A stretch of DNA of 22,870 nt. It comes from a virus (lineage: Duplodnaviria; Heunggongvirae; Uroviricota; Caudoviricetes). Numbering within the stretch: the stretch's first letter is position 1; every line of letters starts with the position of its first letter. The notes under the pieces are model-generated. The model searched no databases. It was not told the DNA's origin and saw nothing but the letters and a program-made list of their open reading frames with translations. The position numbers and the translations under genes are program-made. Where the stretch lies: IMG/VR virus record IMGVR_UViG_3300036828_000615, positions 64,001 through 86,870 of that record. One strand, written 5' to 3'. Positions 480-21,135 of this stretch are shown in pieces.

Positions 480-1016
480 CTACCCACTCTGCGAGAGCAG
501 CTCGATCAACTCAGCCTTGCGCGCGGTGGAAGGGTACTCGACGCCGCGTTCCTCCAGCTGCGCCTTGAGTTCGGCGACCGTGAACTCCCCGAGGTCTTCC
601 TCGTCGTCGTCGGCCTCCGGCTCAGGCACGGGCTCGGGCTCAGGCTCGGGCTCAGGCTCGGGCTCGGGCTCCGGCGAGGTCTGCCAGGCGCGAGTGGCGC
701 CGTCGGGCAGGTCCTCACCCGCGTCGTGGTCGACGACATCGACATCCTCCATCAGCTCACCGGTGGCCTTGTCGACCAGGATGACGTCGTCGTCGTCGTC
801 GGCCACGTCACCTTCCAGCGCGGCCGCCATCGCGGCCAGGTGCTCGGGCACCTCCTGGCCCAGCGCCTCGAACAGCTCAACCTGGCGCCGGACGGCCAGT
901 GCGCTGGCCGCCACCGGATCGCGCACGAACACACCGCCCTTGGGCGGTGCCGCGAGCCGGCCGAATTGACCGCTGGAAACCTCGGCCTCGGTGTGATCCT
1001 TACGACCAACGGCCAT
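480..1016 (-). CDS. Acidic protein with PE-repeat linker and C-terminal HeH/SAP/Rho-N-like domain
   Basis: AAGGAGG RBS before ATG 1016; 178 aa. The C-terminus LGEFTVAELKAQLEERGVEYPSTARKAELIELL has the helix-extended-helix pattern. Confidence 0.8.
   Translation of the reverse strand: MAVGRKDHTEAEVSSGQFGRLAAPPKGGVFVRDPVAASALAVRRQVELFEALGQEVPEHLAAMAAALEGDVADDDDDVILVDKATGELMEDVDVVDHDAGEDLPDGATRAWQTSPEPEPEPEPEPEPEPVPEPEADDDEEDLGEFTVAELKAQLEERGVEYPSTARKAELIELLSQSG
619..672. repeat. Nine tandem 6-nt units (mostly GGCTCR) encoding EPEPEP... linker
   Basis: ggctca ggcacg ggctcg ggctca ggctcg ggctca ggctcg ggctcg ggctcc read directly. Confidence 0.9.
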
Positions 1017-3367: not shown

Positions 3368-5056
3368 TTAACTCGCTTTGGTCTTGGGCTGCATGGTGTC
3401 GGCGAAGCCGGACTGGCGGATCACGGCCAGCCCTTCGGAGACCTTGATCGTCTTGGGCTCGCCGAACTCGGCGCGCAACTCCTCGAGCCTGCGAGTCACG
3501 TCGGTGTCAGTGGGCGCGCTGGCCTGCAGATCGCGGATCTGGCGGCGGGCCTTGGCCAGCATGGTGCGCAGATCCTTGTCGCCCTCGGCCATGTTGTAGC
3601 AGGTGACAATGGTGGCTTCCAGCGCCTTGGCCAGGCCGAGGTCCAGGCCCAGCTCCTGCTCGTGCTCGTCCTCGTCGCAGTCCTCGTTCTCGCCGATGGC
3701 GCCCTCGGCGTCGGTACCGGCGTAGTCGTCCATCTCCGAGTGCGCGTCGGGCATCCCGCGCCGGCCCTTCTTCTCGTCGTCGTCGCCCTCGCGGCCGCCG
3801 CCCTTCTTGAACGGCTTGGCCTGCTTGTCGGCGAAGTCGCGATCCTCGTTGTCGTTGCAGGACTCGTCGTCGTCGTGCTCGCCGTCGCAGCTCGCGTCAT
3901 GCCCGCGGTCGGCAATCTCGTCAATCATCGCGTGTTGCTCCTTGTCGTATTCCTCGTCGTGCGGGTCCAACGGCCAGTCGGTGGGCCGCCAGACATAGGG
4001 AGCGCCCTTGAAGGCCGTGCCCCGCTTGGCCGAGGGCAGTTGCACCTCGCTGCCGTCCTGCAGGACCGCGACCAGCATGGTGCCACCCGCCGCGTCGGGC
4101 CGCAGGTCGATGTGGTCGACACCGCTCAGCGTCTTGGATTCGTCGACCGTGATGCCGAACGACTTGGCCGCCGACCGGAGCTTGCCCATGATCGCGGACT
4201 GCTGCTCGGAGGTGTAGCTGCCTTTGTTCTGGGCGAAGCGCGCCAGCGCGTTGCGCACCCGGGCGGCGGAGTTCAACGGGTACCGCTTCACGCCGTTACC
4301 CTCCTTGGCGGGCTTGCCCTTGCTGTCCAGGTAGCCCGGGTCGGCGAAGGTGGAGACCCCGGAGTACTTCTTGGGTGTCGACGCCCGGATCGTCGCCTTC
4401 AGCACGCCCATCGCCCGCTCCACCTGATCGCGGTCCATCTTGCGCAGCTCAACCAGGTCGTTGTTCGACAGCTGGGCCAGCGCGGAGACCGCCTCGGTGG
4501 ACAGCATCGCCGCCGTGTTGGGATTGGCGCCGTAGTTGACCACCGACACGTCACCCTTCTGCAGGTTGATCTCGGTGATGGTGCGCCGGGTGTAGGAGTC
4601 GTCCCATTCCTGGCCGTTGTTGGCCACCCGGAACGCGAAGCTCATCTCGTCCATATCGCCGCGGCGCATCTTGGGCATGAGCCGCTGCACGTCGGGGTCG
4701 GTCGGGTCCAGCGTGGCGCGCACCAGCAGCCCGTGCGGGTCGGTCGACAGGCTCATGGTGCCGCTCTTGGTCCGGGCCAGCGGCAGCCCTTCGTGGTTGA
4801 GCAGCAGCTGCACGTCGGGACTGGTGGACAACGTACGGTCGAACGCGCGGGTGTGGATCGACTCGTCCCAGCCCCCGCCGGTCGGACCGCCGTACACCGG
4901 GTAGGGCTGATCGAAGGTCGCCGCGTAGCCCTCCAGGATCACCTGGGGACGCTCGCCGTCGTTGCGGTATTCGTAGTGCAGCGGCTGCGCCATCCGGCGC
5001 TGCTCGCGCACGTCGAAGATCTTCGCCCGGAAGCTGTAGTCGGTGGCGGTGGTCAT
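3368..5056 (-). CDS. HK97-type prohead protease (S78) fused to an extra helical domain and an acidic scaffold-like tail
   Basis: AGGAGG RBS. The N-terminal ~190 aa has LEGYAATF, LLNH, DPHGL, MSFAFRV and EINLQKGDVSVVNYGANP motifs; 562 aa in total. Confidence 0.88.
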   Translation of the reverse strand: MTTATDYSFRAKIFDVREQRRMAQPLHYEYRNDGERPQVILEGYAATFDQPYPVYGGPTGGGWDESIHTRAFDRTLSTSPDVQLLLNHEGLPLARTKSGTMSLSTDPHGLLVRATLDPTDPDVQRLMPKMRRGDMDEMSFAFRVANNGQEWDDSYTRRTITEINLQKGDVSVVNYGANPNTAAMLSTEAVSALAQLSNNDLVELRKMDRDQVERAMGVLKATIRASTPKKYSGVSTFADPGYLDSKGKPAKEGNGVKRYPLNSAARVRNALARFAQNKGSYTSEQQSAIMGKLRSAAKSFGITVDESKTLSGVDHIDLRPDAAGGTMLVAVLQDGSEVQLPSAKRGTAFKGAPYVWRPTDWPLDPHDEEYDKEQHAMIDEIADRGHDASCDGEHDDDESCNDNEDRDFADKQAKPFKKGGGREGDDDEKKGRRGMPDAHSEMDDYAGTDAEGAIGENEDCDEDEHEQELGLDLGLAKALEATIVTCYNMAEGDKDLRTMLAKARRQIRDLQASAPTDTDVTRRLEELRAEFGEPKTIKVSEGLAVIRQSGFADTMQPKTKAS

Positions 5057-5072
5057 GATTCCTCCTGGTTGC

Positions 5073-6446
5073 TCACTGTCTCACCGGAACGCTTTTTCCG
5101 TTACGCGGCGCGCCGCGCGGCCGTCGGGGCGGCTCGTCCTCGTCATCTTCACCGCCGCCGTCGTTCTCACCGCCGGCGATCGGGGGTGTCGGCAGACCGC
5201 CTGGTGCAGTACCCGGCTTGATCAGCGGCGGCGGCGGGTTCATCAGGCCGGGCGGAGTGCCCAGCGGGACCATCGTGCCGGGGTGGAAGATCTCGTCGCC
5301 GCCCTCGACCGGGTCCATCTCCTCGCGGGCGCGCACCTCGTTGGTGGAGGTCCAGCCCGCGACGGTCGACCCGCCCAGCGCGTTCTTGTACGCCGCGAAG
5401 CGGGCTTCGATATCCCCGCGCAGCAGGGCGTCGAAGTCGAACCGCACGTATTGGCCGCCCGGCAGGCAGCGGTTGATCATGGATTCGATGCAGGCCGTCC
5501 AGGCGCGGAAGGTGTAGGTGATCGCACCCAGGGTGATCTGCTCGACGCCGGTGCCCCAGGCGGTCGTCTCCTTGGTGTCGCCGATGAGGATGGGCGGGAC
5601 GCCGAACATGATGCAGATCTCGGACCGCTGGAATTGCCGGGTGGCCAAAAACTGCGATTCCTCGGGGCTGATCGACAGGTTCTTCCAACTGAACCCGCTG
5701 GTCAGCACCGCAGGTAGCCGCCGCCCGCCGTGGGAGGCGATCCAGTTCTTCTGCTGGCGCTCCACCGCGCCCTCGTCGAGGTCCTGATCGGTCATCAGCA
5801 GACCTGACGGGTTGGCCGACTCCTTGAAGTAGCGGAAGCCGTATTCCTCTGCGCCCAGGCTCATCCCGATCGCCACCGCGGCCTGTTTGACCGGCGAGAG
5901 CCCCCACGGCTCGCCGGGCATGGTGAAGCGTCTGATGTGCAGCATGTCGGCGGGACTGACCTTCTCGCCCATGATCCGGTAGATCGGGTCGAACCACATC
6001 AGGATGTCGGGACGGCGCTCGAGGAACACGATGTCGGGGTGCAGCGGCAGCAGTGAGGTGGGGTAGTTCAGCCGGTCGCGGCTGGTGATCAGGTGATAGC
6101 TGTTGCCACGCAAGGCCATTGAGGCCACGACCATCCACTTCCACTGGAACAGGTCGAAGCCCGGGAACGGCTCGCGCAGCAGCACCGGCTGCGGCTTGAC
6201 CTCCTTGGGGATGCCCTTGGCGTCGCGCCGGTACGCCTTCCACGGCAGGCTCGCGATGGTGTCGGCCAGGATGCGCACGCAGGCATACACCGTCATGTTC
6301 GCCATAGCCCGGTGCACGCCGAGGTAGTCGTCGATCACCCCGACCTGCGGGGGCGGCACGAAGGCGCTGGTGGTCAGGGTGCGCTGCTCGGCACCGCCGG
6401 TGCCGCCGGCGCGGCCGGTGCGCAACAGGTTGGTCAGGACGCTCAA
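5073..6446 (-). CDS. Portal protein, HK97 family
   Basis: 457 aa, TTG start. VYACVRILADTIASLP, GNSY, LHIR, GLSP, ISPEESQFL and ICIMFGVPP motifs; between TerL and the protease. Confidence 0.93.
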   Translation of the reverse strand: MSVLTNLLRTGRAGGTGGAEQRTLTTSAFVPPPQVGVIDDYLGVHRAMANMTVYACVRILADTIASLPWKAYRRDAKGIPKEVKPQPVLLREPFPGFDLFQWKWMVVASMALRGNSYHLITSRDRLNYPTSLLPLHPDIVFLERRPDILMWFDPIYRIMGEKVSPADMLHIRRFTMPGEPWGLSPVKQAAVAIGMSLGAEEYGFRYFKESANPSGLLMTDQDLDEGAVERQQKNWIASHGGRRLPAVLTSGFSWKNLSISPEESQFLATRQFQRSEICIMFGVPPILIGDTKETTAWGTGVEQITLGAITYTFRAWTACIESMINRCLPGGQYVRFDFDALLRGDIEARFAAYKNALGGSTVAGWTSTNEVRAREEMDPVEGGDEIFHPGTMVPLGTPPGLMNPPPPLIKPGTAPGGLPTPPIAGGENDGGGEDDEDEPPRRPRGAPRNGKSVPVRQ

Positions 6447-6447
6447 C

Positions 6448-6849
6448 TCAGCCCCTCATCACCTTGGAGGTGGCCACCCCGAGCAGGATCAGCGCGATCC
6501 CGATGATCGCCAGGCCCAGCGCCGGATGCACCAGCCACCCGGCGACGCTCAGCGCGGTGATCCCGGTCAGCTCCAGCAGGGTGGAGAACAGCTCACGCCA
6601 GTCGAAGCCCGGCTCGCCCACCGGCTCGGGCAGGTTCTTCGGTGTCACCACCGACACCGGCTTCTCCGGCTCCTTGTCCCCGTCCTTGTCCTTCTTGGCC
6701 TTGTGTGGTGGCTCGGGCTCGTCGGCCCAGGGCGGCGGATCGGGCAGCAGCATCTCCGCGCGGCGCTGGTCCTCGAGCGCCTCCCGGGCGTCGGCGTACA
6801 GCTTGCCGCCGCCACCGAAAGAGACCACGTTGTCAGGAGAATCGCTCAT
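6448..6849 (-). CDS. Small membrane protein between terminase and portal
   Basis: 133 aa with two C-terminal hydrophobic segments; overlaps the TerL end and abuts the portal start. Confidence 0.75.
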   Translation of the reverse strand: MSDSPDNVVSFGGGGKLYADAREALEDQRRAEMLLPDPPPWADEPEPPHKAKKDKDGDKEPEKPVSVVTPKNLPEPVGEPGFDWRELFSTLLELTGITALSVAGWLVHPALGLAIIGIALILLGVATSKVMRG

Positions 6850-8428
6850 CGGCTTCCTTTCGCCAGGTGTCGAGGGTTTCTTCGTCGGGCCACTCCCAGA
6901 TCGTGGGTGGCCCCGGGGTCGGCGGCGGGTTGTTGAGCAGCCACACCGCCCCTGCGACCGCGACCAGCGGTGCGGCGTCGACCGGCGAGTTGCGCCGGGA
7001 GAAGAACCAGGCGTCCCCCGACGTGCGCGCGATCGTCGAGGCCGCGGCCCGGTCCAGGATCGCCGACGGGCGGTGGCGGATGGTTCCGTTGACGATGCCG
7101 TCGTAGAACTCCCCGGCGCCGCTGGCGAGCTGGGCCACCGGCGCGCCCCATTCCACCACGTCGAGCCCGGCCGCGCGCAGGTCCTCGATCATCGACGAGG
7201 CCGGTGCCCCGGTCTTCTGCACGCACAGTCCGGCGAAGTTCGCCTTGCGTTCGGCCAGCCACGCAGGCACCCACTCGGTGCCGGTGACCGGGGTTTTGAG
7301 CACCTCGGCGTGGATCTTGCCGTCGGCCCGCAGTGCGGCCATGGCGATGTAGGCGCGGGTGCGGTGGTAGTTGACGTCGACGCAGATGTAGGCCGGGTTG
7401 GCCTTGTCACGCTCCGAGTCCTTGTCCTTGGTGTCGGCCCACGCCTGGGCCGGGATGATGCCCGGGTCCAAAGAGTCCACCCACTGACATAGGTATTCGG
7501 TCTGGAAGCCCGGCATGTCCCCGGCCTCCATCGCCTCGAACTTGCCCATCAGGTCGTCCATACAGAACTCGTTGAGCAGCCCCAGCGCAGGCTGCGCCAG
7601 GTGCCAGTACTCGGGCTTACGCGGGTCCACGTCGTCGGGTACCGACCACTCGAAAAACCCGGTGCGGGTGCGCTCGGTGTTCCGCGTGACGATCGCGCGC
7701 ATGGCGGTCTCACGCAGGCTGCGCAGCACGATCGAGCGATTGTCCCCGGCGTTGGAGGTGACCAGCAGCTGGCTGCACGGGCGCACCGTGGTGGTCGGCT
7801 CAATGGCGCGGTAGGCGTCCCAGGTGGAGTGCGTGCGCAACTCGTCGAGCCACGCGAAGTCCACCGGCAGGCTGCGCCCGCCCGAGGAGTTGGCGGTCAC
7901 CGCGCGCCACAGCCGCCGGTAGGTGAGGATCGCGCGGTGCTTGCCGTTGGTGACGGCGTGGTTGAGCAGCTCGGGGGCCAGCAGCGGATGATCGCGCATC
8001 TCGTCCACGCAGTCCTTCAGTGTGGACTCCGCGTATTCCAGGTTCTGCGCGGCGACCACCGCCAGCTTCGCCGCCGGCCAATGCTTGCTGCCGCGCCCGC
8101 GCTCGTCCATGAACAGCCGCCAGAGCCCCAGGCCGCGGCCCCACTTGGTCTTGCCCTGCTGGCGCCCGACCATCACGATCAGGATGCGGAAGCGGAACCC
8201 GGTGTTGTCGGTCTGCTTCTCCAGCGCGCGGTAGTAGAGCCATTTCTGCCAGGGCAGCAGATGCCAGCCCAGGATCATTTCCAGGAAGTAGCAGCACAGC
8301 GGGCCCCAGGTGGCCTCGGGCCTGATGCCGTACTCAGCCTCGGGATCGACGTGTTCGGGCAGCGGAGGAGTGAACATCCGCGGCGTGGTGGACCCGATCC
8401 GTGGATCGACGTCGAGTGCAGTGCTCAT
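6833..8428 (-). CDS. terL: Terminase large subunit
   Basis: 531 aa. LLPWQ adenine motif, Walker A GRQQGKT, Walker B AWLDE, TSNAG coupling motif, C-terminal nuclease with CVDV and PVDAAPLVA. Confidence 0.93.
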   Translation of the reverse strand: MSTALDVDPRIGSTTPRMFTPPLPEHVDPEAEYGIRPEATWGPLCCYFLEMILGWHLLPWQKWLYYRALEKQTDNTGFRFRILIVMVGRQQGKTKWGRGLGLWRLFMDERGRGSKHWPAAKLAVVAAQNLEYAESTLKDCVDEMRDHPLLAPELLNHAVTNGKHRAILTYRRLWRAVTANSSGGRSLPVDFAWLDELRTHSTWDAYRAIEPTTTVRPCSQLLVTSNAGDNRSIVLRSLRETAMRAIVTRNTERTRTGFFEWSVPDDVDPRKPEYWHLAQPALGLLNEFCMDDLMGKFEAMEAGDMPGFQTEYLCQWVDSLDPGIIPAQAWADTKDKDSERDKANPAYICVDVNYHRTRAYIAMAALRADGKIHAEVLKTPVTGTEWVPAWLAERKANFAGLCVQKTGAPASSMIEDLRAAGLDVVEWGAPVAQLASGAGEFYDGIVNGTIRHRPSAILDRAAASTIARTSGDAWFFSRRNSPVDAAPLVAVAGAVWLLNNPPPTPGPPTIWEWPDEETLDTWRKEADERFS

Positions 8429-8637
8429 GGCGGCGGCCCCGGCGTGACCGGATCAACAGCACCCCAGGTCAGGGCGGAGCCGTTGCACCCGGTGTCCATA
8501 TGTGGACACCGCTGCAGCGTTACGGAATCGGCGCGGCAGTCGAGGGCCTCGCCGATCGCGTCGGCGAACAGCCTGCGAAGCGGTGCAGTGAGCAGGAGCC
8601 AGGCCGCTTCGAAGGCGTCGCCGAGCAGTTTCCGCAC
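8425..8637 (-). CDS. Hypothetical 70-aa protein coupled to terL
   Basis: ATGA overlap with the terL start; GACAAT-N6-GTG upstream suggests a leaderless start. Confidence 0.55.
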   Translation of the reverse strand: MRKLLGDAFEAAWLLLTAPLRRLFADAIGEALDCRADSVTLQRCPHMDTGCNGSALTWGAVDPVTPGPPP

Positions 8638-8670
8638 GTCATCATTGTCGAAGCGATTTGCCTATACCTT

Positions 8671-8750
8671 GTGTCAAGCACATTTCCCGGCGTGTCGCAT
8701 TCGCTCTCGGTGATCGTTGGGCGTGTCGGCACTGCGACCTCGGCGTGTCG
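8671..8750. repeat. Phased GTGTC (GACAC) boxes, three as GGCGTGTCG
   Basis: GGCGTGTCG at 8689, 8720 and 8742; GTGTC cores at 8671, 8692, 8723 and 8745 (spacing 21, 31, 22). Confidence 0.75.
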
Positions 8751-8775
8751 CCGGAATCACCCCGACAATTGACAG

Positions 8776-8916
8776 GTGCGCAGCCTGGCAATCTCGCTGT
8801 TTGTGCTCGCCGCGCTGATCGCCTGGCTGATCATCAGCCAACCCGACTCCGCAAGCACCACGATCCGCCCACCGCTGACACCGGTCACGAGCCCCTGGTA
8901 CGGCGACCGCGATTGA
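8776..8916 (+). CDS. 46-aa single-pass membrane/secreted microprotein, opposite strand to the head module
   Basis: Not in the ORF track. MRSLAISLFVLAALIAWLIISQPDSASTTIRPPLTPVTSPWYGDRD; GACAAT-N6-GTG upstream; the stop abuts the convergent TerS-like stop. Confidence 0.55.
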   Translation: MRSLAISLFVLAALIAWLIISQPDSASTTIRPPLTPVTSPWYGDRD

Positions 8917-9378
8917 TCATCCCAGCTTTTCGCGCTGCTGGCGGTAGCGGGCCAGCTCGTCGAGCTGGGGTCCGTCCACCTCGATGTCGTTGTCGTTCAT
9001 CGGCGGGATCGGCGCACGCACGACGTCGGCCAGGCCGTACACGTCGATCTGCTCACGCAGCAGCCGGCGCGCCACCTCGATGGCCTTTAGGTCGCCGGTC
9101 TCGACATGCTCTAACGCCTTGCGCACCAGCGACTCCATCCGCGCCAGCAGGATGATCATGGCGTTCTCGTTGCGCAGGATGTGATCCTTGGTGGCGCGCT
9201 CCAGCTCGGTGCGGATGATGCGCCCGACGTGGTAGTGGCTCAGCTTGACCTGCGCGTTGGCGGCGATGTCGCGCTGGCTGTGCCCGGCCAGGAACAGATC
9301 CAGGATCAGGTTGTCGCGCTTCTCCCGCTGCGCCGGGGTCAACCGCGGCGGGGGTTTGGGTTTGCGTTTGGCGGCCAT
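8917..9378 (-). CDS. HTH protein, probable terminase small subunit
   Basis: AGGAG RBS before ATG 9378 (the track ORF is over-extended); 153 aa with an N-terminal HTH (ILDLFLAGHSQRDIAA), a helical middle and a position upstream of terL. Confidence 0.6.
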   Translation of the reverse strand: MAAKRKPKPPPRLTPAQREKRDNLILDLFLAGHSQRDIAANAQVKLSHYHVGRIIRTELERATKDHILRNENAMIILLARMESLVRKALEHVETGDLKAIEVARRLLREQIDVYGLADVVRAPIPPMNDNDIEVDGPQLDELARYRQQREKLG

Positions 9379-9386
9379 GGCTTCTC

Positions 9387-11171
9387 CTAGTGCCCGACCG
9401 GGAAGCCGTAGTCGACCAGCGGTCGCTCTCCGGCTTCCCGCAGCGCCAGGATATGGCGCATAAGCCATTGTCGCCCGTTGGCGTTTCGATAGGGCTTCAT
9501 CAGTGCTTCGTTGCGGGCGATGTCGCGATCCCAGCCCGGCGAGTCGGCCTTGGCGTCGTGGTATTCGCCGGCGTTGGTGTTGTGCTCGAACGCGTAGACA
9601 TTGCCCTCGATGCGCTTGAGCCTCGACAGCGTCTGCACGATCGCGGTGAACGCGGTGTCCTCCCAGCCCCAGCCGCAGTTGCCGGTGAAGTACACCTTGC
9701 CGTTGCGCCGGGCCAGCCATGTCCCGTTCTCAGTCGTCGGGCACCACACGATTCCCTCGACCTGGTGACGCGTGTGTGTCCCCTTGGACAGCATGAACCG
9801 GCGTTGACGTCGGATCGACACGACGGTCATGCCGTAGCCGTACTTCGTCATAACCGGCCTGGTCACCGACGAGGTGGCATAGCCAGCCAGGATGCACGCG
9901 AACTGGAATGACTCAGCGGCAGCTTGGTTCTTCTGGGCCAGCTGCTGCTCATAGGACCGGGTCCGGGTGTGACCGTCAGCCCAGAGGGAGGTCTGGATGA
10001 AAGATTCCAGCTGAGACTGGGTGAGCGATATCAGGAACTCGTGGGTGACCACCCGGTTCGGGGCACAGGACTGGACGAGAGCACCGGCTTCAGCGTTGAG
10101 GTTGAAAATGGCGGTCTGCCCCGCACGGGTTTCCCGCCAGGCTGGAGGTACTTCGGGCGAGCGGCCCGACCGTCGCTGTGCGCCTATCGGTGGCCCCAGT
10201 GATCGACGCAGTGCCGAGCGGATCCTTTCGCAGTGGTCCGGGTTGACGGTTACCGACTGGCTGATCGAAACGGTTCTCGCCCGGGAGCCGTCCCGGTTCC
10301 GGGAGATGCAGCCCTCGGTCCAGAACCAGCCCACTAACTCCACGAAAGCGTCGGTGTATTTCGGCTCCGTGGGCAGGTCCGAGCAGTGAGCAGCGGTCGG
10401 AACGTAGTCCTGCTGCTGGAAGGTTCCCGTCGTAGTCCACGTCCGACGGGTCCGTCGGAATGATCTCTTGCCAACCTGGCGGACGTTCCAGTTCCGCTCG
10501 ACCGGCCAGCGGTGATCCATCGTGCTCAACGAGGAGTGGGTCTTGCTTTCGATCCCGACCATCTCCCGGCTACCGGGGTAGACGTTCACCCGCTGAAGCG
10601 GTTTCCATTCGCTCATAGCCGTGTCGTGGTTCAGGGTTAAGACAGGCTCACCGATAGTGATATCGGTATATCGCTTCCAGCCCTGACTGGTCAGAATCTC
10701 GGTGGGCTCATCCACGCAGAACTCCGGCGGTTGCCCGCCCAGACGCCAGTACTCGGTCTGGGTGGCGACCAGACAGCCACCCACCCCGTTGACCCCGTCA
10801 CCGTCCCAGGAGGTGGTCATGTAGGGCGCCCGGTCCAGCTGGTCGAACGGCGTATAGAGGTAGTCGGTGCTCAGAATGCGGTAGTGGGTGAAGGGCCAGC
10901 AGACGCACTGCTGCGGGTCGGCGACCGCCGCGCGCACATTGTCGAGCACGGGAATCGTGTCGGCGTCGCAGATCACCACGACCTCGGTGCGGGCCTTGCG
11001 CACCGCGTTGTTGCGGGCCTGGGCGAGGCTGAAGATCTCGGTGTCTGAGTCGGCGGTGACCACCGGCCAGCCGACCTGCTCCCAGAACGCCATCACCCGC
11101 TCGAAGATCGGGATCCGCGACGGGGACGGGCGCCACGGAATGCACACGGTGGCTTCAGGTTTCGTGGACAC
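9387..11171 (-). CDS. GT-A glycosyltransferase (GT2/GT7C-like) interrupted by an intein
   Basis: CIPWRP, ARNNAV, ICDADT (DxD), and after intein removal GGQPPEF-CGWGWED; about 247 aa of extein. Start is GTG 11171 (GAGG RBS) or ATG 11177. Confidence 0.85.
   Translation of the reverse strand: MSTKPEATVCIPWRPSPSRIPIFERVMAFWEQVGWPVVTADSDTEIFSLAQARNNAVRKARTEVVVICDADTIPVLDNVRAAVADPQQCVCWPFTHYRILSTDYLYTPFDQLDRAPYMTTSWDGDGVNGVGGCLVATQTEYWRLGGQPPEFCVDEPTEILTSQGWKRYTDITIGEPVLTLNHDTAMSEWKPLQRVNVYPGSREMVGIESKTHSSLSTMDHRWPVERNWNVRQVGKRSFRRTRRTWTTTGTFQQQDYVPTAAHCSDLPTEPKYTDAFVELVGWFWTEGCISRNRDGSRARTVSISQSVTVNPDHCERIRSALRRSLGPPIGAQRRSGRSPEVPPAWRETRAGQTAIFNLNAEAGALVQSCAPNRVVTHEFLISLTQSQLESFIQTSLWADGHTRTRSYEQQLAQKNQAAAESFQFACILAGYATSSVTRPVMTKYGYGMTVVSIRRQRRFMLSKGTHTRHQVEGIVWCPTTENGTWLARRNGKVYFTGNCGWGWEDTAFTAIVQTLSRLKRIEGNVYAFEHNTNAGEYHDAKADSPGWDRDIARNEALMKPYRNANGRQWLMRHILALREAGERPLVDYGFPVGH
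9678..10718 (-). mobile_element. Intein with LAGLIDADG homing endonuclease (347 aa)
   Basis: Starts CVDEPTEILTSQGWK; block B STMDH; endonuclease motifs LVGWFWTEG and IQTSLWADG; ends VWCPTTENGTWLARRNGKVYFTGN followed by Cys+1. Confidence 0.9.
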
Positions 11172-11835
11172 CGTCATCCTCGTCGTGCACGTACTTCCAC
11201 ATCCCGGGCCCGGCCGGACGCCGCCACACCGAGTGGATCGTCGGCACGTCCACCAGTGTGTAGCCGGCGGCCACCAGCGCGAAGGACTCGTAGACGTCGG
11301 CGCCCCAGTGCGCGTAGGGGCCGTGGATGTCGGGCGGATAGGGGACCGCGCGCAGCGCCTCGATCCGCGCCGCGAACACCCCGCCCTGGATGTGCAACTC
11401 GGGCAGCGCGGAGTCAAAGCCCATCGCGGCCGGCGGACCCGCGTCGGCCAGCGTGCCGGTCATCCCCGCCCTCGGGTTGTTGATCAGCGGCGTCAGCAGA
11501 TCCCAGGGCCAGCTCGGGTCGTAGCTGTGGCCGTGGTTGGTGCAGACGTAGAGCAGGTAGGGATGGCGCGCGAGCTCGGCGGCCACGTTCAGCGCCGGCC
11601 CGCTTTTCAGGTTCGCCCCGCGCTGCCAGCGGTAATGCGGTTCGCACACGCCGTTGTCGTACACCGCCGTGGCCAGCTTGTTGGCGCGCCGCGTGCTGTT
11701 GTCGATGACGATCAGCTCGGCGTCGAGCTTGTGGCGCAGGTGTCCCAGCGCGGGCACCAGGTCGCGCTGCAGCCGGACCAGGGCCCGGTCCTCGTTGTTG
11801 TGCACGATCATCACCGCGCTGACCCCGAACCTCAT
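11155..11835 (-). CDS. Putative GT-A fold glycosyltransferase
   Basis: ATGA overlap with the upstream methyltransferase; 226 aa. VSAVMIVHN, LIVIDNS, ALNVAAELARHPYLLYV, HIQGGVFAAR and WGADV fit a divergent GT2-like pattern. Confidence 0.65.
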   Translation of the reverse strand: MRFGVSAVMIVHNNEDRALVRLQRDLVPALGHLRHKLDAELIVIDNSTRRANKLATAVYDNGVCEPHYRWQRGANLKSGPALNVAAELARHPYLLYVCTNHGHSYDPSWPWDLLTPLINNPRAGMTGTLADAGPPAAMGFDSALPELHIQGGVFAARIEALRAVPYPPDIHGPYAHWGADVYESFALVAAGYTLVDVPTIHSVWRRPAGPGMWKYVHDEDDGVHET

Positions 11836-12482
11836 CGCGCCGCCTTGCGCAGGATCACCAGCGAGGGCCAGAAGTGGGCGAACTCGACCGCATAGCCGCG
11901 CCAGAACCGCTCGGGATACAGCGGTTCGGTGGGGCGCCAGTGCAGCCGGTAGCTCACCTCGTCGACCATGCCTTTGAACCACTGCACCGACGTCGGCCCC
12001 TGCGCCCGGGCGCCCTGCGGGTCTTCGAGCTCGGTGTAGGCCAGCCAGGTGTCCTCGCAGACGTAGAACCCACCGGGGCGGACGAGCGGCCACACCGCGG
12101 CGAAGGTGGCGATGGTCAGCTCGGAGCAGTGACTGGCGTCGTCGATGACGATGTCGAACAGGCCGTAGTCCTCGGCGATGCGTCCGGCCAGACCGGCGTC
12201 GGCCTGATCGCCGGTGAGAACCCGCACCCGGCCGGGTAGGTCCAAGGTCTTGGGCTGGTTGTCGATACCGATGACGGTGGCCTTGTCGAAGTAGTCGCTC
12301 CACATGCGCAGCGACTCGCCACCGGCGCGGGGATCGCCGTAGCCGCCGACGCCGTACTCGACCACGGTGATCGGCTCGAACCGCAGGTGCGAAAAATACC
12401 GCTCGTAGATCAGGGTGTAGGCGTGGTGCTCGGTGGACTTGTCGGTGTGATGCCGGATGGCCAGCTCATTAAGGGTTTCCAT
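11832..12482 (-). CDS. Class I SAM-dependent sugar O-methyltransferase (MycE/TylE-like)
   Basis: 216 aa. TDK..HH.Y..IYERYF, VEYGVGGYGDPRAGGESLRMWSDYF, GIDN, GDQAD, FDIVIDDASH and GGFYVCED. Confidence 0.82.
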   Translation of the reverse strand: METLNELAIRHHTDKSTEHHAYTLIYERYFSHLRFEPITVVEYGVGGYGDPRAGGESLRMWSDYFDKATVIGIDNQPKTLDLPGRVRVLTGDQADAGLAGRIAEDYGLFDIVIDDASHCSELTIATFAAVWPLVRPGGFYVCEDTWLAYTELEDPQGARAQGPTSVQWFKGMVDEVSYRLHWRPTEPLYPERFWRGYAVEFAHFWPSLVILRKAAR

Positions 12483-12689: not shown

Positions 12690-13406
12690 CTAGCCATCTG
12701 GCTTACTCCATCCGTTGCAGTACCCCAGCGGCGTCGCCGCTGTCGCCCAGTTCTGTCGCGTTCCGCAGCTCCAGGCCCGCCGCTCACTGCGTGCCTCGTC
12801 GGGCCCGTACCCGATCGGTGTGTCATCGGCGTGATCGACCAGGCTGGGGACGGTGTAGCAGATGGGCATCTCCCAGTTCTGCGCCCACCGCGACACCGCC
12901 AGCGGATACTCCACTCGCGCATACCGCTGCTCAGCCGCGCCGAGTGTCTCGACCAGCTCGGGCAGCATCGCCTCGATCAGCGAGGTGCGGATCGCGTACC
13001 CCACCGACCCGATCAGACAGTCCGCGGTGATCCAGGCCAGATTGCGGCGCTGCGCCGTCATCAGGGCTGCGCGCATCTGGCGCTGCACCTGGCCCGAAGG
13101 ATTGCCGGTACCCAGGTAGAGCCCGATGACAGGGGCCGGCGTGTGCCGCACCGCCTGGGCGATCTCGACACGGAAGGCCGACACCGGCTCGGCGTCGTCC
13201 TCGAGTACCACGCTCCAGCCGGTGTCGTACCCGGCCAGCTCGCCCAGCACCTTCAGATGGTTGCCCGCACAGCCCAGCGTGCCGTCGTCGACGTTGCAGT
13301 AGTCGGCCTTGACGGCATCGAACAGCGCGTGGGCCCGCTCGACCCGCGCGCTGTGGGCGACGATGCCGATCGCGATGTGGTCGACGATGCCGATCGCGAT
13401 GCTCAC
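12690..13406 (-). CDS. Glycosyltransferase of the type found in mycobacteriophages (GT-A, LEDDA motif)
   Basis: 238 aa. IGIVAH..R, VDDGTLGCAGNH, WSVVLEDDA, VGYAI and YTVPSLVDHAD. Confidence 0.78.
   Translation of the reverse strand: MSIAIGIVDHIAIGIVAHSARVERAHALFDAVKADYCNVDDGTLGCAGNHLKVLGELAGYDTGWSVVLEDDAEPVSAFRVEIAQAVRHTPAPVIGLYLGTGNPSGQVQRQMRAALMTAQRRNLAWITADCLIGSVGYAIRTSLIEAMLPELVETLGAAEQRYARVEYPLAVSRWAQNWEMPICYTVPSLVDHADDTPIGYGPDEARSERRAWSCGTRQNWATAATPLGYCNGWSKPDG
13353..13400. repeat. 24-nt tandem duplication at the glycosyltransferase 5' end
   Basis: 13353-13376 and 13377-13400 differ at one base; encode IAIGIVDH IAIGIVAH. Confidence 0.9.
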
Positions 13407-15047: not shown

Positions 15048-15848
15048 ATGGCCAAGGGCATGAGGGTCTGGAAGGCCGGGGACAATCTGGACGAGTCGAT
15101 CGGGTTCAAGTTCCGGGTGACCGATGCCGACGAGTTGGTCAAGGCCGCCGCCGAGAACTTCGTCGAGGAGCAGGCCCGCGCCTGGCGTGATGTCCGCCAA
15201 TGGGCCGATGACCAGATGGAGCTGATCGAGGTTGAACCCGGCGGCTCCCCCAACGGCCCGGGCGCGAGCCTGTCGTTGACCGAGAACCTACGCACCGAGC
15301 TGCCCAAGCTGTGGGTGCGCCACAACATCCGTTCGGTGCTCGACGTGGCGTGCGGCGACCTGAACTGGATGCGCCACGTCGACTTCACCGACCTGACCGC
15401 CCCCGAGCACACCAGGCCGTTCAACTACTTCGGCTGGGACATCGACCCTGAGCTGATTGTGCGCGCACAACAGCGCGCGGGCGAGATGAAGGGCAACCCG
15501 CACACCTGGTTCGAGATGCACAACATCCTCGACACCCCGTTCCTCAACGTGGACTGCATCCTGGCCCGGCACATCCTGATCCACCTGCCCAACGACTACA
15601 TCAGCGCGGTGCTCGACGAGATGCGTCACAGCCACGCCAAGTATCTGTTGGCCTCCAACTTCCCCGACGAGACCAACGACTTCATCTACGACCCGACCCG
15701 CTACGCCTGGATCGGCTACATGGAGCATCCGGTCAACCTGGAAGCCCCGCCGTTCAACCTGACGACCAAGATCGACGCGATTCCCGAGACGCCCGGCCCG
15801 GCCGGGGTGCTCACCGCGCGTCACGAGCTCGCGCTGTTCAAGCTATGA
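15048..15848 (+). CDS. Class I SAM-dependent methyltransferase with N-terminal extension
   Basis: AGGAGG RBS; GPGAS, VLDVACGDLNWM, YFGWDID, VDCILARHILIHL, AKYLLASNF and PVNLEAPPFNL. Confidence 0.82.
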   Translation: MAKGMRVWKAGDNLDESIGFKFRVTDADELVKAAAENFVEEQARAWRDVRQWADDQMELIEVEPGGSPNGPGASLSLTENLRTELPKLWVRHNIRSVLDVACGDLNWMRHVDFTDLTAPEHTRPFNYFGWDIDPELIVRAQQRAGEMKGNPHTWFEMHNILDTPFLNVDCILARHILIHLPNDYISAVLDEMRHSHAKYLLASNFPDETNDFIYDPTRYAWIGYMEHPVNLEAPPFNLTTKIDAIPETPGPAGVLTARHELALFKL

Positions 15849-19615: not shown

Positions 19616-19774
19616 ATGGCAAATGCGGAGGTGTGTCGGCACTGCGGCGAACCCATCCTCAAATTCAACTTCCGCGACCAGGGCGAGCAGTGGTGGCACG
19701 CCAACCCGCTGCGCGGATCCACCACCTATCTGCACTGCGCCGCCGACATTGACCGGCCCAGGGCCGCGCCGTGA
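19616..19774 (+). CDS. 52-aa zinc-ribbon-like microprotein
   Basis: Not in the ORF track; MANAEVCRHCGEPI...WWH...LHC...; CACAAT-N6-ATG upstream; GTGA overlap with the DNA methyltransferase. Confidence 0.65.
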   Translation: MANAEVCRHCGEPILKFNFRDQGEQWWHANPLRGSTTYLHCAADIDRPRAAP

Positions 19775-21135
19775 AGCCCTACTACCACGACGATCAGCTC
19801 ACCCTGTACCACGGCGACGCCCTGGCCGTAGCGCGCGAGCTGCCCGATCGCGCCGTGGACTGCATTGTCAGCAGCCCGCCGTATTACGCGCTGCGTGACT
19901 ACGGCGACCCCGGCCAGTACGGGCTCGAGGACACCCCGGCCGATTATGTGGAGCACCTGCGCGCGCTGTTTTTCGAGCTGCGCCGGGTGCTGGCCGCCGA
20001 CGGGACCTGCTGGCTGGTGCTGGGCGACAGCTACAGCAGCAGGAAGGGCGCGGCCGCCGACGACAAGAACCTGATGGGCATGCCCTGGCGGGTGGCTCGT
20101 GCGCTGCAGCAACCGCAGTACGTCGGCAAGATTCACAATGAAGCGGACCGCGCGTGGCTCGCTGCGATGGTCGACGGTGAAGGCTGCATCGCCATGCATC
20201 GCCGGATGTCTGAAGAACGTAAGCGACCGACCTTCGCGCCGGTGGTCCAAGTGGCTAACACCAATCTGGGATTACTTGAACGCTGCCAACAGGTAGCGGG
20301 CGTTGGGACAATCTCGCATAGCGACCGCGGGCGGAACCGGCGCATTTATCGCTGGTGTGTAATGAGTAACCAAGCGCGTCAACTACTTCGCGAGCTATAT
20401 CCGCACCTAATTGCCAAACAACCGCAAGCTCGCGCCGCGGTAGCCGCATCGTGCGGGGGTGGCCGCTGGGGAGAATCGTCGCCCGGCGCGGAGCGCGCAT
20501 GGTTAGAGATAAAGGCCCTCAACAAGGGCGGCACGCATGATGGCGGATGGCCCGTCCCGGCCAGCATGTTCACTCCTGGATGGATTTTGAGAAATGCCAT
20601 TATTTGGTCGAAGCCCAACACGATGCCCGAGTCGGTCACCGACCGGCTCGCCTCGCGCTACGAGCACGTGTTCCTGTTCGCCAAGCAGCAGCGGTATTTC
20701 TTCGACCTCGACGCGATTCGCGAAGCGCATTCGCCGATCACACTGGACCGCTCGGCGCGTTCGGAGCGCAAACCGTATTCGGCCCGCGGCAGGAGCGGGA
20801 TGGCCAAGGTCCCCGGCCTGGGCGCCTACGGCGCGATCTCGGCGGGCAGGCGCACCCTCAACGAGGCCGGCGCCAACCCCGGGGACGTGTGGTCGGTCCC
20901 CACCGAGAAATTCCCCGGCGCGCACTTCGCCGTCTATCCCGTGGCGCTGGCGCAGCGCGCTATTTCCGCCGGGTGTAAACCCGGCGGAGTCGTATGCGAT
21001 CCGTTCAACGGCAGCGGTACCACCGGGCTGGCCGCCCAGAAAACCGGGCACCACTACATCGGCATCGACATCAGCCGCGACTACCTGGACCTGGCCCTGA
21101 GCACGCGCTTGAGCCAGGCCGCCCTGGACTTCTGA
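19771..21135 (+). CDS. Beta-class N4-C/N6-A DNA methyltransferase with in-frame LAGLIDADG insertion
   Basis: LYHGDAL, IVSSPPYY (motif IV), WLVLGDSY, GWILRNAIIWSKPN.MPES..DR....YEHVFLFAK, HFAVYP and CDPFNGSGTTG (motif I). Confidence 0.9.
   Translation: MKPYYHDDQLTLYHGDALAVARELPDRAVDCIVSSPPYYALRDYGDPGQYGLEDTPADYVEHLRALFFELRRVLAADGTCWLVLGDSYSSRKGAAADDKNLMGMPWRVARALQQPQYVGKIHNEADRAWLAAMVDGEGCIAMHRRMSEERKRPTFAPVVQVANTNLGLLERCQQVAGVGTISHSDRGRNRRIYRWCVMSNQARQLLRELYPHLIAKQPQARAAVAASCGGGRWGESSPGAERAWLEIKALNKGGTHDGGWPVPASMFTPGWILRNAIIWSKPNTMPESVTDRLASRYEHVFLFAKQQRYFFDLDAIREAHSPITLDRSARSERKPYSARGRSGMAKVPGLGAYGAISAGRRTLNEAGANPGDVWSVPTEKFPGAHFAVYPVALAQRAISAGCKPGGVVCDPFNGSGTTGLAAQKTGHHYIGIDISRDYLDLALSTRLSQAALDF
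20113..20574 (+). mobile_element. Single-motif LAGLIDADG endonuclease-like domain without intein blocks (~154 aa)
   Basis: WLAAMVDGEG at 20155-20184, QVANTNLGLL, YRW and LLRELYPHLIAKQPQA; many A/T-ending codons unlike the flanks. Confidence 0.75.

What the first reader, a model, noticed from the sequence alone, without database searches (positions are those of the whole stretch)
9387..11171. Intein with homing endonuclease inserted at the active-site motif of a phage glycosyltransferase
Seen: a 347-aa insert (Cys1 ... TxxH ... two LAGLIDADG motifs ... Gly-Asn / Cys+1) splits GGQPPEF from CGWGWED. Known: the WGxED-type motif carries the catalytic base region of GT7C/GT2-like enzymes; phage inteins mostly sit in terminase, replication and nucleotide-metabolism proteins. 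The penultimate residue is Gly rather than the usual His. Inferred: an uncommon extein class; glycosylation would depend on splicing and could be conditionally switched.
Basis: partly seen in the sequence, partly recalled or inferred. Interest (0 to 1): 0.8.

Follow-up and report, generated by a model that had tools for sequence, protein, structure and literature searches.

The report
Homing intein in phage sugar-coating enzyme
A selfish, self-splicing protein insert (an intein with its own DNA-cutting enzyme) really does interrupt the active-site loop of a sugar-transferring enzyme that a soil mycobacteriophage-like virus probably uses to coat its particle; the element is of a known kind, but I found no published record of it in this host enzyme.

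Summary
Confirmed. A 347-aa intein (10718-9678, minus strand) splits a GT-A glycosyltransferase between GGQPPEF and CGWGWED, seven residues before the predicted catalytic Asp. Its AlphaFold model (pLDDT 96) matches Hint+LAGLIDADG inteins (TliVMA, Z 24.7); Pfam and NCBIfam miss it. The host gene is a homolog of Che8 gp109/Corndog gp37 in a virion-glycosylation-type cassette beside terminase. Closest empty alleles carry Ile/Val at +1 (53 of 58), so Cys+1 probably arrived with the intein. Related inteins sit in 29 GT-A proteins at four sites. Intein and host trees disagree, and one phage occurs with and without a sister-site intein at 99.75% DNA identity: a homing parasite. Penultimate Gly is family-normal (221/224) and published. 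No evidence for a conditional switch. Two actinophage intein surveys list no glycosyltransferase host; fungal chitin-synthase inteins are the precedent. The scan had already noted glycosyltransferase inteins on other DNA, mostly at GT4 EX7E sites. Splicing, cleavage and glycosylation were not tested.

The parts
9387..11171 (-). Intein-containing GT-A glycosyltransferase gene (594-aa precursor from GTG 11171; 247 aa after splicing); PHROG 1721 galactosyl transferase, Che8 gp109/Corndog gp37 family
   Evidence: (E 7.7e-28)
10719..11171 (-). N-extein, ends GGQPPEF
10959..10967 (-). DxD metal/nucleotide-sugar motif (DAD), invariant in 100 empty homologs
9678..10718 (-). Intein, 347 aa, Hint + two-motif LAGLIDADG endonuclease; GC3 0.78 against 0.88-0.94 for uninterrupted neighbour genes
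10716..10718 (-). Cys1 (block A nucleophile), 224/224 in family
10506..10523 (-). Block B T66-x-x-H69-R70-W71: TxxH, Arg B11 (candidate substitute for missing His), Trp B12 of the WCT triplet
10311..10343 (-). First LAGLIDADG motif (block C), acidic residue E135, 29/29 in GT inteins
9972..10004 (-). Second LAGLIDADG motif (block E), acidic residue D248, 29/29 in GT inteins
9741..9743 (-). Cys326, block F position 4 (class-3 type nucleophile), 223/224
9678..9686 (-). Block G Thr345-Gly346-Asn347 (Thr G5 of WCT, penultimate Gly, terminal Asn)
9675..9677 (-). Cys+1 codon TGC; closest empty alleles have ATC (Ile) here
9657..9674 (-). GWGWED loop with predicted catalytic base Asp+7 (aligned to WGWGGEDD of beta-1,4-galactosyltransferases)
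   Evidence: role of the Asp from established knowledge of GT7
9387..9677 (-). C-extein, 96 aa
11155..11835 (-). Upstream second GT-A/GT2-like glycosyltransferase of the cassette
   Evidence: syntenic in L005-L007, L031
11832..12482 (-). SAM-dependent methyltransferase (candidate sugar O-methyltransferase)
12690..13406 (-). Glycosyltransferase, 41% identical to Che8 gp110 and 40% to Corndog gp38 (PHROG 854)
6833..9378 (-). Downstream terminase small and large subunit genes that open the head operon (context)

Best explanation
A selfish, homing intein. The 594-aa precursor is made from the late glycosylation/head gene block; the Hint domain excises itself (most likely by the class-1 route through Cys1, with Arg70 or another residue replacing the missing block-G and block-F histidines) and joins Phe-1 to Cys+1, restoring a 247-aa inverting GT-A enzyme that probably extends glycans on virion proteins, as the Che8 gp108-110 and Corndog gp35-38 cassettes do. 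The released LAGLIDADG endonuclease cuts empty alleles of co-infecting phages in the conserved GGQPxEF-x-GWGxED coding stretch; repair copies in the intein and, where the target has Ile/Val at +1, co-converts that codon to Cys/Ser. Shown here: anatomy, fold, conservation, patchy and incongruent distribution. Inferred: splicing, its chemical route, cleavage, co-conversion, the glycan and its acceptor.
For: Fold and motifs. Splicing residues and both endonuclease acidic residues invariant in all 29 GT-A inteins. Intein identity exceeds host identity for distant hosts: 65.6 vs 28.1% (P0005), 62.5 vs 24.3% (P0006), while hosts 49-53% identical (P0007, P0012) hold a more distant intein at another site. 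The four close same-site hosts are rejected as one clade (p-AU 3.6e-85). One phage occurs with (L113) and without (L114) a sister-site intein at 99.75% identity over 4.4 kb, and 3 of the 5 SNPs in the 813-nt gene lie at -1, +3 and +6 nt of the insertion point. An empty Ile allele of a related phage is in the same soil sample (joint skipping 1043 nt with AT between, depth 3.7). 53 of 58 close empty alleles have Ile/Val at +1, 2 have Cys; co-conversion of +1 has precedent in Haloferax MCM (PMC10643990). Host family and cassette; PMC4351075, PMC12363180.
Against: No splicing, cleavage or glycosylation data. The three closest invaded hosts (P0001-P0003) are not rejected as one clade (p-AU 0.36), so Cys+1 may have been gained once, or the intein may have entered a rare Cys allele. 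No near-identical empty allele of this phage was found, so this copy's own recent movement is not shown. Homolog sets were picked by similarity to the query, which biases counts. The link to Che8 gp109 is remote (direct phmmer E 4.7e-5; family profile E 2.6e-23).
Confidence: 0.8

Rival explanations
1. Conditional switch: the phage keeps the intein because splicing responds to redox, metal or temperature and so turns virion glycosylation on or off.
For: The insertion is in the catalytic loop, so enzyme activity should need splicing (inference). Three thiols (Cys1, Cys326, Cys+1) lie at the intein active site, and active-site disulfides can make splicing redox-sensitive (PMC4031507).
Against: Most close homologs, including the syntenic L005 (terminase 82%, portal 91% identical), have no intein. 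Distribution is patchy and horizontal, endonuclease intact. Cys+1 is not kept (Ser in 14 of 19 same-site alleles). The same intein family sits in portals, terminases, amidases, methylases and tail proteins, which share no regulatory logic.
Confidence: 0.1
2. Same selfish element, but it splices by the class-3 route (Cys326 attacks first) or can use either cysteine; Cys1 is kept for another role.
For: W71, C326 and T345 are kept in 224, 223 and 223 of 224 members, the triplet that defines class 3 (PMC2807308). The best Hint-only structural match is the class-3 AceL NrdHF intein (Z 18.8, rmsd 1.8 over 144, next Hint 16.3).
Against: Cys1 is invariant (224/224) and Thr B7 is kept in 221/224, both class-1 marks; class 3 is defined by lack of a position-1 nucleophile (PMC2807308, PMC7891396).
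Confidence: 0.25
3. The gene is a dead-end: the intein does not splice well here and the glycosyltransferase is in effect knocked out, tolerated because virion glycosylation is dispensable.
For: No His at G6 or in block F; many phages lack these enzymes.
Against: Frame intact, exteins keep every invariant residue, splicing residues invariant across 29 GT-A inteins that are only 46-66% identical; penultimate-Gly phage inteins splice efficiently (PMC5050341).
Confidence: 0.05

Closest known systems
Actinobacteriophage LAGLIDADG inteins of portal and terminase genes (Gordonia phages Woes/Hail2Pitt gp8, GMA3 TerL; Mycobacterium phage Pinkcreek gp135; surveys PMC5050341 and bioRxiv 10.1101/2025.01.02.630785)
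   Same: Full-length homologs, 33-41% identical, same Cys1...FTGN ends.
   Different: Host protein: neither survey lists a glycosyltransferase among its exteins; no GenBank phage carries this extein-intein pair.
Class 3 (WCT) inteins, e.g. MP-Be DnaB, AceL NrdHF (6zgq), and the three WCT inteins with Cys1/Ser1 noted in PMC2807308
   Same: Trp B12, Cys F4, Thr G5 all present; closest Hint-only fold match is 6zgq.
   Different: Cys1 and TxxH are kept, penultimate Gly instead of His; not in a helicase or ATPase P-loop.
Bethlehem gp51 (RDF) intein (PMC5050341)
   Same: Phage intein with penultimate Gly; shown to splice.
   Different: Different host protein; sequence relationship not tested.
Fungal chitin synthase (CHS) inteins (PMC5784728)
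   Same: Intein in a glycosyltransferase (chitin synthase is GT2, GT-A fold; own knowledge).
   Different: Eukaryotic membrane enzyme, intein related to glutamate-synthase inteins; equivalence of the insertion site not tested.
Mycobacteriophage virion glycosylation cassettes: Che8 gp108-110, Corndog gp35-38 (Freeman et al. 2023, known through PMC12363180 and PMC11256854; PMC4351075)
   Same: Three glycosyltransferases plus a methyltransferase next to head genes; homologs of gp110/gp38 (41/40%) and gp109/gp37 (profile E 2.6e-23, 5.3e-27).
   Different: One enzyme is intein-split; glycosylation of this uncultured phage is untested.
Beta-1,4-galactosyltransferases 1 and 7 (GT7), K4 chondroitin polymerase (GT2), ppGalNAc-T (GT27)
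   Same: GT-A fold, DxD and GWGxED loop.
   Different: 13-16% structural identity; donor and acceptor unknown.

Membership tests
Intein (Hint superfamily) | In-frame insert absent from homologous alleles | tested here: met
   130 intein-free homologs collinear across the site; L005 syntenic
Intein (Hint superfamily) | Hint fold formed by N- and C-terminal segments | tested here: met
   Model pLDDT 96; VIA Z 13.6-18.8 to mini-inteins over 122-148 residues, Z 24.7 to TliVMA
Intein (Hint superfamily) | Terminal Asn and Cys/Ser/Thr at +1; His B10 | tested here: met
   N347, C+1, H69; 224/224 in family
Intein (Hint superfamily) | Self-excision with extein ligation | not testable with these tools
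   needs a splicing assay
Class 1 intein | Cys/Ser at position 1 and TxxH in block B | tested here: met
   C1 224/224, T66 221/224
Class 1 intein | Position-1 nucleophile required for splicing | not testable with these tools
   needs C1A versus C326A mutants
Class 3 intein | WCT triplet (Trp B12, Cys F4, Thr G5) | tested here: met
   W71, C326, T345
Class 3 intein | No nucleophile at position 1 | tested here: not met
   Cys1 invariant; so not filed as class 3
Class 3 intein | Block F Cys is the obligate first nucleophile | not testable with these tools
   needs mutagenesis
LAGLIDADG homing endonuclease | Two LAGLIDADG helices ending in acidic residues, I-DmoI/PI-SceI-like fold | tested here: met
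   E135, D248; Foldseek to PI-SceI, PI-PfuI, I-DmoI
LAGLIDADG homing endonuclease | Cleaves the empty allele and drives homing | tested here: inconclusive
   Only indirect: incongruent trees and a near-identical plus/minus pair at a sister site
GT-A glycosyltransferase, GT7C/GT2-like | GT-A fold, DxD motif, GWGxED loop | tested here: met
   Empty homolog P0121 (71% identical) modelled at pLDDT 92.6; hits to K4CP, b4GalT1/7, GalNAc-T; PF02709 in homologs
GT-A glycosyltransferase, GT7C/GT2-like | Sugar transfer, donor and acceptor | not testable with these tools
   needs biochemistry
Mycobacteriophage virion glycosylation system | Homologs of Che8 gp110/gp109 or Corndog gp38/gp37 clustered near head genes | tested here: met
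Mycobacteriophage virion glycosylation system | Glycans on capsid or tail-tube proteins | not testable with these tools
   uncultured phage
Conditionally splicing (regulatory) intein | Splicing in native exteins depends on a physiological signal | not testable with these tools
   indirect evidence points away

The most novel reading that the evidence does not exclude
A large, unannotated phage intein lineage (1,776 representatives at E<1e-30, almost invisible to Pfam/NCBIfam) keeps two catalytic cysteines and can splice by either the class-1 or the class-3 route; this tolerance of flanking residues, plus import of its own +1 nucleophile codon, lets it colonise non-essential virion-modifying enzymes and hop between neighbouring positions of one active-site loop (F|xGWG, GWG|xED, GMD|xRF).
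Probability: 0.2. Interest if true: 0.7.

Novelty: new member of a known kind. Interest (0 to 1): 0.42.

Why it matters
It extends intein hosts beyond nucleic-acid and packaging proteins to probable virion-glycosylation enzymes, which tests the idea that inteins persist only in essential genes. [quoted passage not shown] Practically, the family escapes Pfam and NCBIfam, so many phage glycosyltransferases, amidases and portals are mis-sized or left hypothetical.

Tried and rejected
Pfam, NCBIfam and PDB sequence searches of the intein gave nothing (only 3 of 83 members hit Hint_2 weakly): a library gap, not evidence against. Assembly artefact rejected (and independent homologs). Penultimate Gly as a novelty rejected. 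Monophyly of all 29 GT-A inteins: one side of a branch in a quick mixture tree (SH-aLRT 95) but unresolved in a careful tree, where only the three loop sites group (91/93); not claimed. Two origins of the GWG|xED site: not shown (p-AU 0.19), although site-a inteins alone are rejected as a clade (p-AU 1e-5). No GT-hosted member among 74 bacterial-genome hits. No second copy of this intein or GT7C gene in the phage genome. No RNA holder listed. Promoter/terminator scan at chance level. Freeman 2023, Tori and Perler 2011 and InBase could not be read, so 'not catalogued' rests on two phage surveys and full-text searches only. No complex prediction was run.

Full report
Context. The window is the last 22.9 kb of an 86.9-kb uncultured virus record from a soil metagenome. 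Its capsid protein is 48-58% identical to those of mycobacteriophages (prophiT37-1, Typha, Bipper, Omega). On the minus strand run a PHROG 854 glycosyltransferase (12690-13406), a methyltransferase (11832-12482), a GT2-like enzyme (11155-11835), the gene in question, then small and large terminase, portal, protease and capsid.

Observation. The insert is 347 codons, Cys1 at 10718 to Asn347 at 9678, followed by Cys+1. The exteins alone match PHROG 1721 (E 7.7e-28) and 130 intein-free proteins that run straight through the site, up to 71% identical. An AlphaFold model built on 83 homologs has pLDDT 96.3 and matches TliVMA, PI-SceI, PI-PfuI and I-DmoI; VIA gives Z 24.7 to TliVMA and 13.6-18.8 to Hint-only structures. 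Pfam and NCBIfam do not recognise it. A source-sample contig spans the region without differences.

The host enzyme. A profile of 100 empty homologs aligns GGQPEEFxGWGxED to the NGFPNNYWGWGGEDD stretch of beta-1,4-galactosyltransferases 1 and 7 (E about 1e-5), and the model of the 71%-identical empty allele P0121 matches K4 chondroitin polymerase, b4GalT1 and GalNAc-Ts. From established knowledge of GT7, the GWG loop closes on the UDP-sugar and the Asp after Glu is the catalytic base; the intein lies seven residues before it, so the precursor is very unlikely to be active (inference). The family profile hits Corndog gp37 (5e-27) and Che8 gp109 (3e-23), and the neighbour at 12690-13406 is 41% identical to Che8 gp110 and 40% to Corndog gp38, which PMC12363180 calls essential for capsid glycosylation. 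Corndog has the same three-GT-plus-methyltransferase set among head genes (PMC4351075). In related uncultured phages the empty gene lies before terminase or between protease and capsid (L005-L013). Virion glycosylation is therefore the likely role (about 75%, inferred).

The intein's chemistry. In 224 full-length family members Cys1, His B10, Trp B12 and terminal Asn are invariant; Cys F4 and Thr G5 occur in 223, penultimate Gly in 221. So Gly is the family norm, and a penultimate Gly is published for phage inteins, where restoring His slowed splicing (PMC5050341). There is also no block-F His; Arg B11 (R70; Arg/Lys in 217 of 224) is the residue that assists Asn cyclization in Ssp DnaE (PMC4031507) and is my candidate substitute. 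Class 3 is defined by WCT plus no position-1 nucleophile, and three WCT inteins with Cys1/Ser1 were already noted in 2009 (PMC2807308). This element fails class-3 membership on Cys1; I favour the class-1 route (about 70%) because Cys1 and Thr B7 are kept, but cannot exclude class-3 or dual use. A 341-aa family member in a Thermobifida fusca amidase (L167) may be one of those three (memory, unverified).

Distribution. The family is large (1,776 representatives at E<1e-30) and promiscuous: portals, terminases, amidases, DNA methylases, SNF2 and DnaB helicases, tail proteins. Twenty-nine members sit in GT-A proteins at four sites: F|[CST]G[WH]G (19, this site), GWG|[SC]ED (6), GMD|SRF (1) and, near the N-terminus, P[FY]|SK (3). 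The three loop sites group together (91/93) and site-a inteins alone are not a clade (p-AU 1e-5), which fits retargeting by a few codons within one lineage; the position of the fourth site is unresolved. The sample is biased toward relatives of the query.

Evidence for homing. Intein identity to the query is 62-66% in hosts only 24-28% identical, while hosts 49-53% identical hold a more distant intein at another site. The four close same-site hosts are rejected as a clade. Two Logan contigs of one phage, L113 and L114, are 99.75% identical over 4.4 kb and differ by a precise 1053-nt sister-site intein; three of five SNPs in the gene flank the insertion point at -1, +3 and +6, the pattern of a recent conversion tract. 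Both endonuclease acidic residues are kept in all 29 GT inteins. The intein's GC3 (0.78) is below that of uninterrupted neighbours (0.88-0.94), consistent with foreign origin.

The +1 residue. The site is the variable position of a conserved motif: among 58 close empty alleles +1 is Ile 44, Val 9, Cys 2, other 3. The syntenic L005 has ATC where the window has TGC, and the next 27 nt are identical; an ATC empty allele co-occurs in the source sample. The three invaded alleles of this clade all have Cys and each has Ile-bearing nearest neighbours, so the nucleophile codon probably travels with the intein, as reported for Pro-to-Ser at a Haloferax MCM site (PMC10643990). Caveat: those three are not rejected as one clade (p-AU 0.36), so a single gain, or entry into a rare Cys allele, remains possible. 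Natural empty Cys alleles (P0085, P0087) show the spliced product should be functional.

Switch or parasite. Nothing found supports regulation: most relatives lack the intein, it moves horizontally, Cys+1 is not conserved (Ser in 14 of 19), and the family occupies unrelated proteins. Redox sensitivity through Cys1/Cys326 is chemically possible but untested.

Novelty. No glycosyltransferase appears among the hosts in Kelley et al. 2016 or the 19 host proteins of 784 actinophage inteins in the 2025 survey, and full-text searches found no report. Fungal chitin-synthase inteins (PMC5784728) are a precedent for a glycosyltransferase host. InBase could not be checked. This scan had earlier noted glycosyltransferase inteins in at least 22 other genomes, mostly at the GT4 EX7E motif, a few possibly in GT-A enzymes (unchecked AI notes). 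Verdict: real; a new insertion-site group of a known kind of element, with a still-unresolved dual-cysteine signature. Interest 0.42.

Noticed in passing
window 19771-21135 (+), insert about 20107-20577: DNA methylase with an in-frame insert of about 157 aa carrying one LAGLIDADG motif and no Hint ends; cultured homologs (Xula, PopTart) lack it. Resembles the 'second homing endonuclease' of PMC9957025.
   Followed up: partly
L113:4001-5866 and L114:4001-4813: Same phage in two SRA runs with and without a sister-site GT intein, 99.75% identical, SNPs clustered at the junction; a ready-made homing test pair.
   Followed up: yes
L031 about 4385-5454: A phage with the same-site GT intein also has an insert of about 1.07 kb in its large terminase, with a weak match to the intein profile: probably a second intein.
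   Followed up: partly
L122-L201 (e.g. L122, L127, L167): The same intein family sits at a DI[GA]Y|[ST] site of N-acetylmuramoyl-L-alanine amidases in many Nonomuraea, Nocardiopsis, Streptosporangium and Thermobifida genomes, named only 'peptidoglycan-binding protein' or amidase; amidase is not among the published actinophage intein hosts.
   Followed up: partly
P0230-P0356; L048, L061, L062, L072: Many family members interrupt large proteins that look like tail or virion components (sites NHW|S[AG]W, GY|SN, GNY|[ST]DYS), several with two inteins; hosts not identified.
   Followed up: no
L006, L008, L010 around 6001-6700: The empty glycosyltransferase gene lies between the head protease and major capsid genes, in others before terminase: a mobile module that stays with head genes.
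   Followed up: partly
P0033, P0042-P0044, P0055, P0058; P0006, P0057: Relatives fuse this glycosyltransferase to a SAM methyltransferase domain; some intein-bearing distant relatives are fused to a polysaccharide pyruvyl transferase domain.
   Followed up: no
P0145, P0152 versus P0003: The nearest empty relatives (80-84%) of an invaded allele read DPAF|I instead of PPEF|I just before the site: possibly homing-resistant alleles or a conversion tract.
   Followed up: no
window 15048-15848 (+): Second SAM methyltransferase (PHROG 3382) on the opposite strand, also present next to the cassette in L005.
   Followed up: no
window 480-1016 (-): Gene after the capsid encodes an acidic protein with a Pro-Glu repeat run and a short C-terminal helical domain; function not examined.
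   Followed up: no
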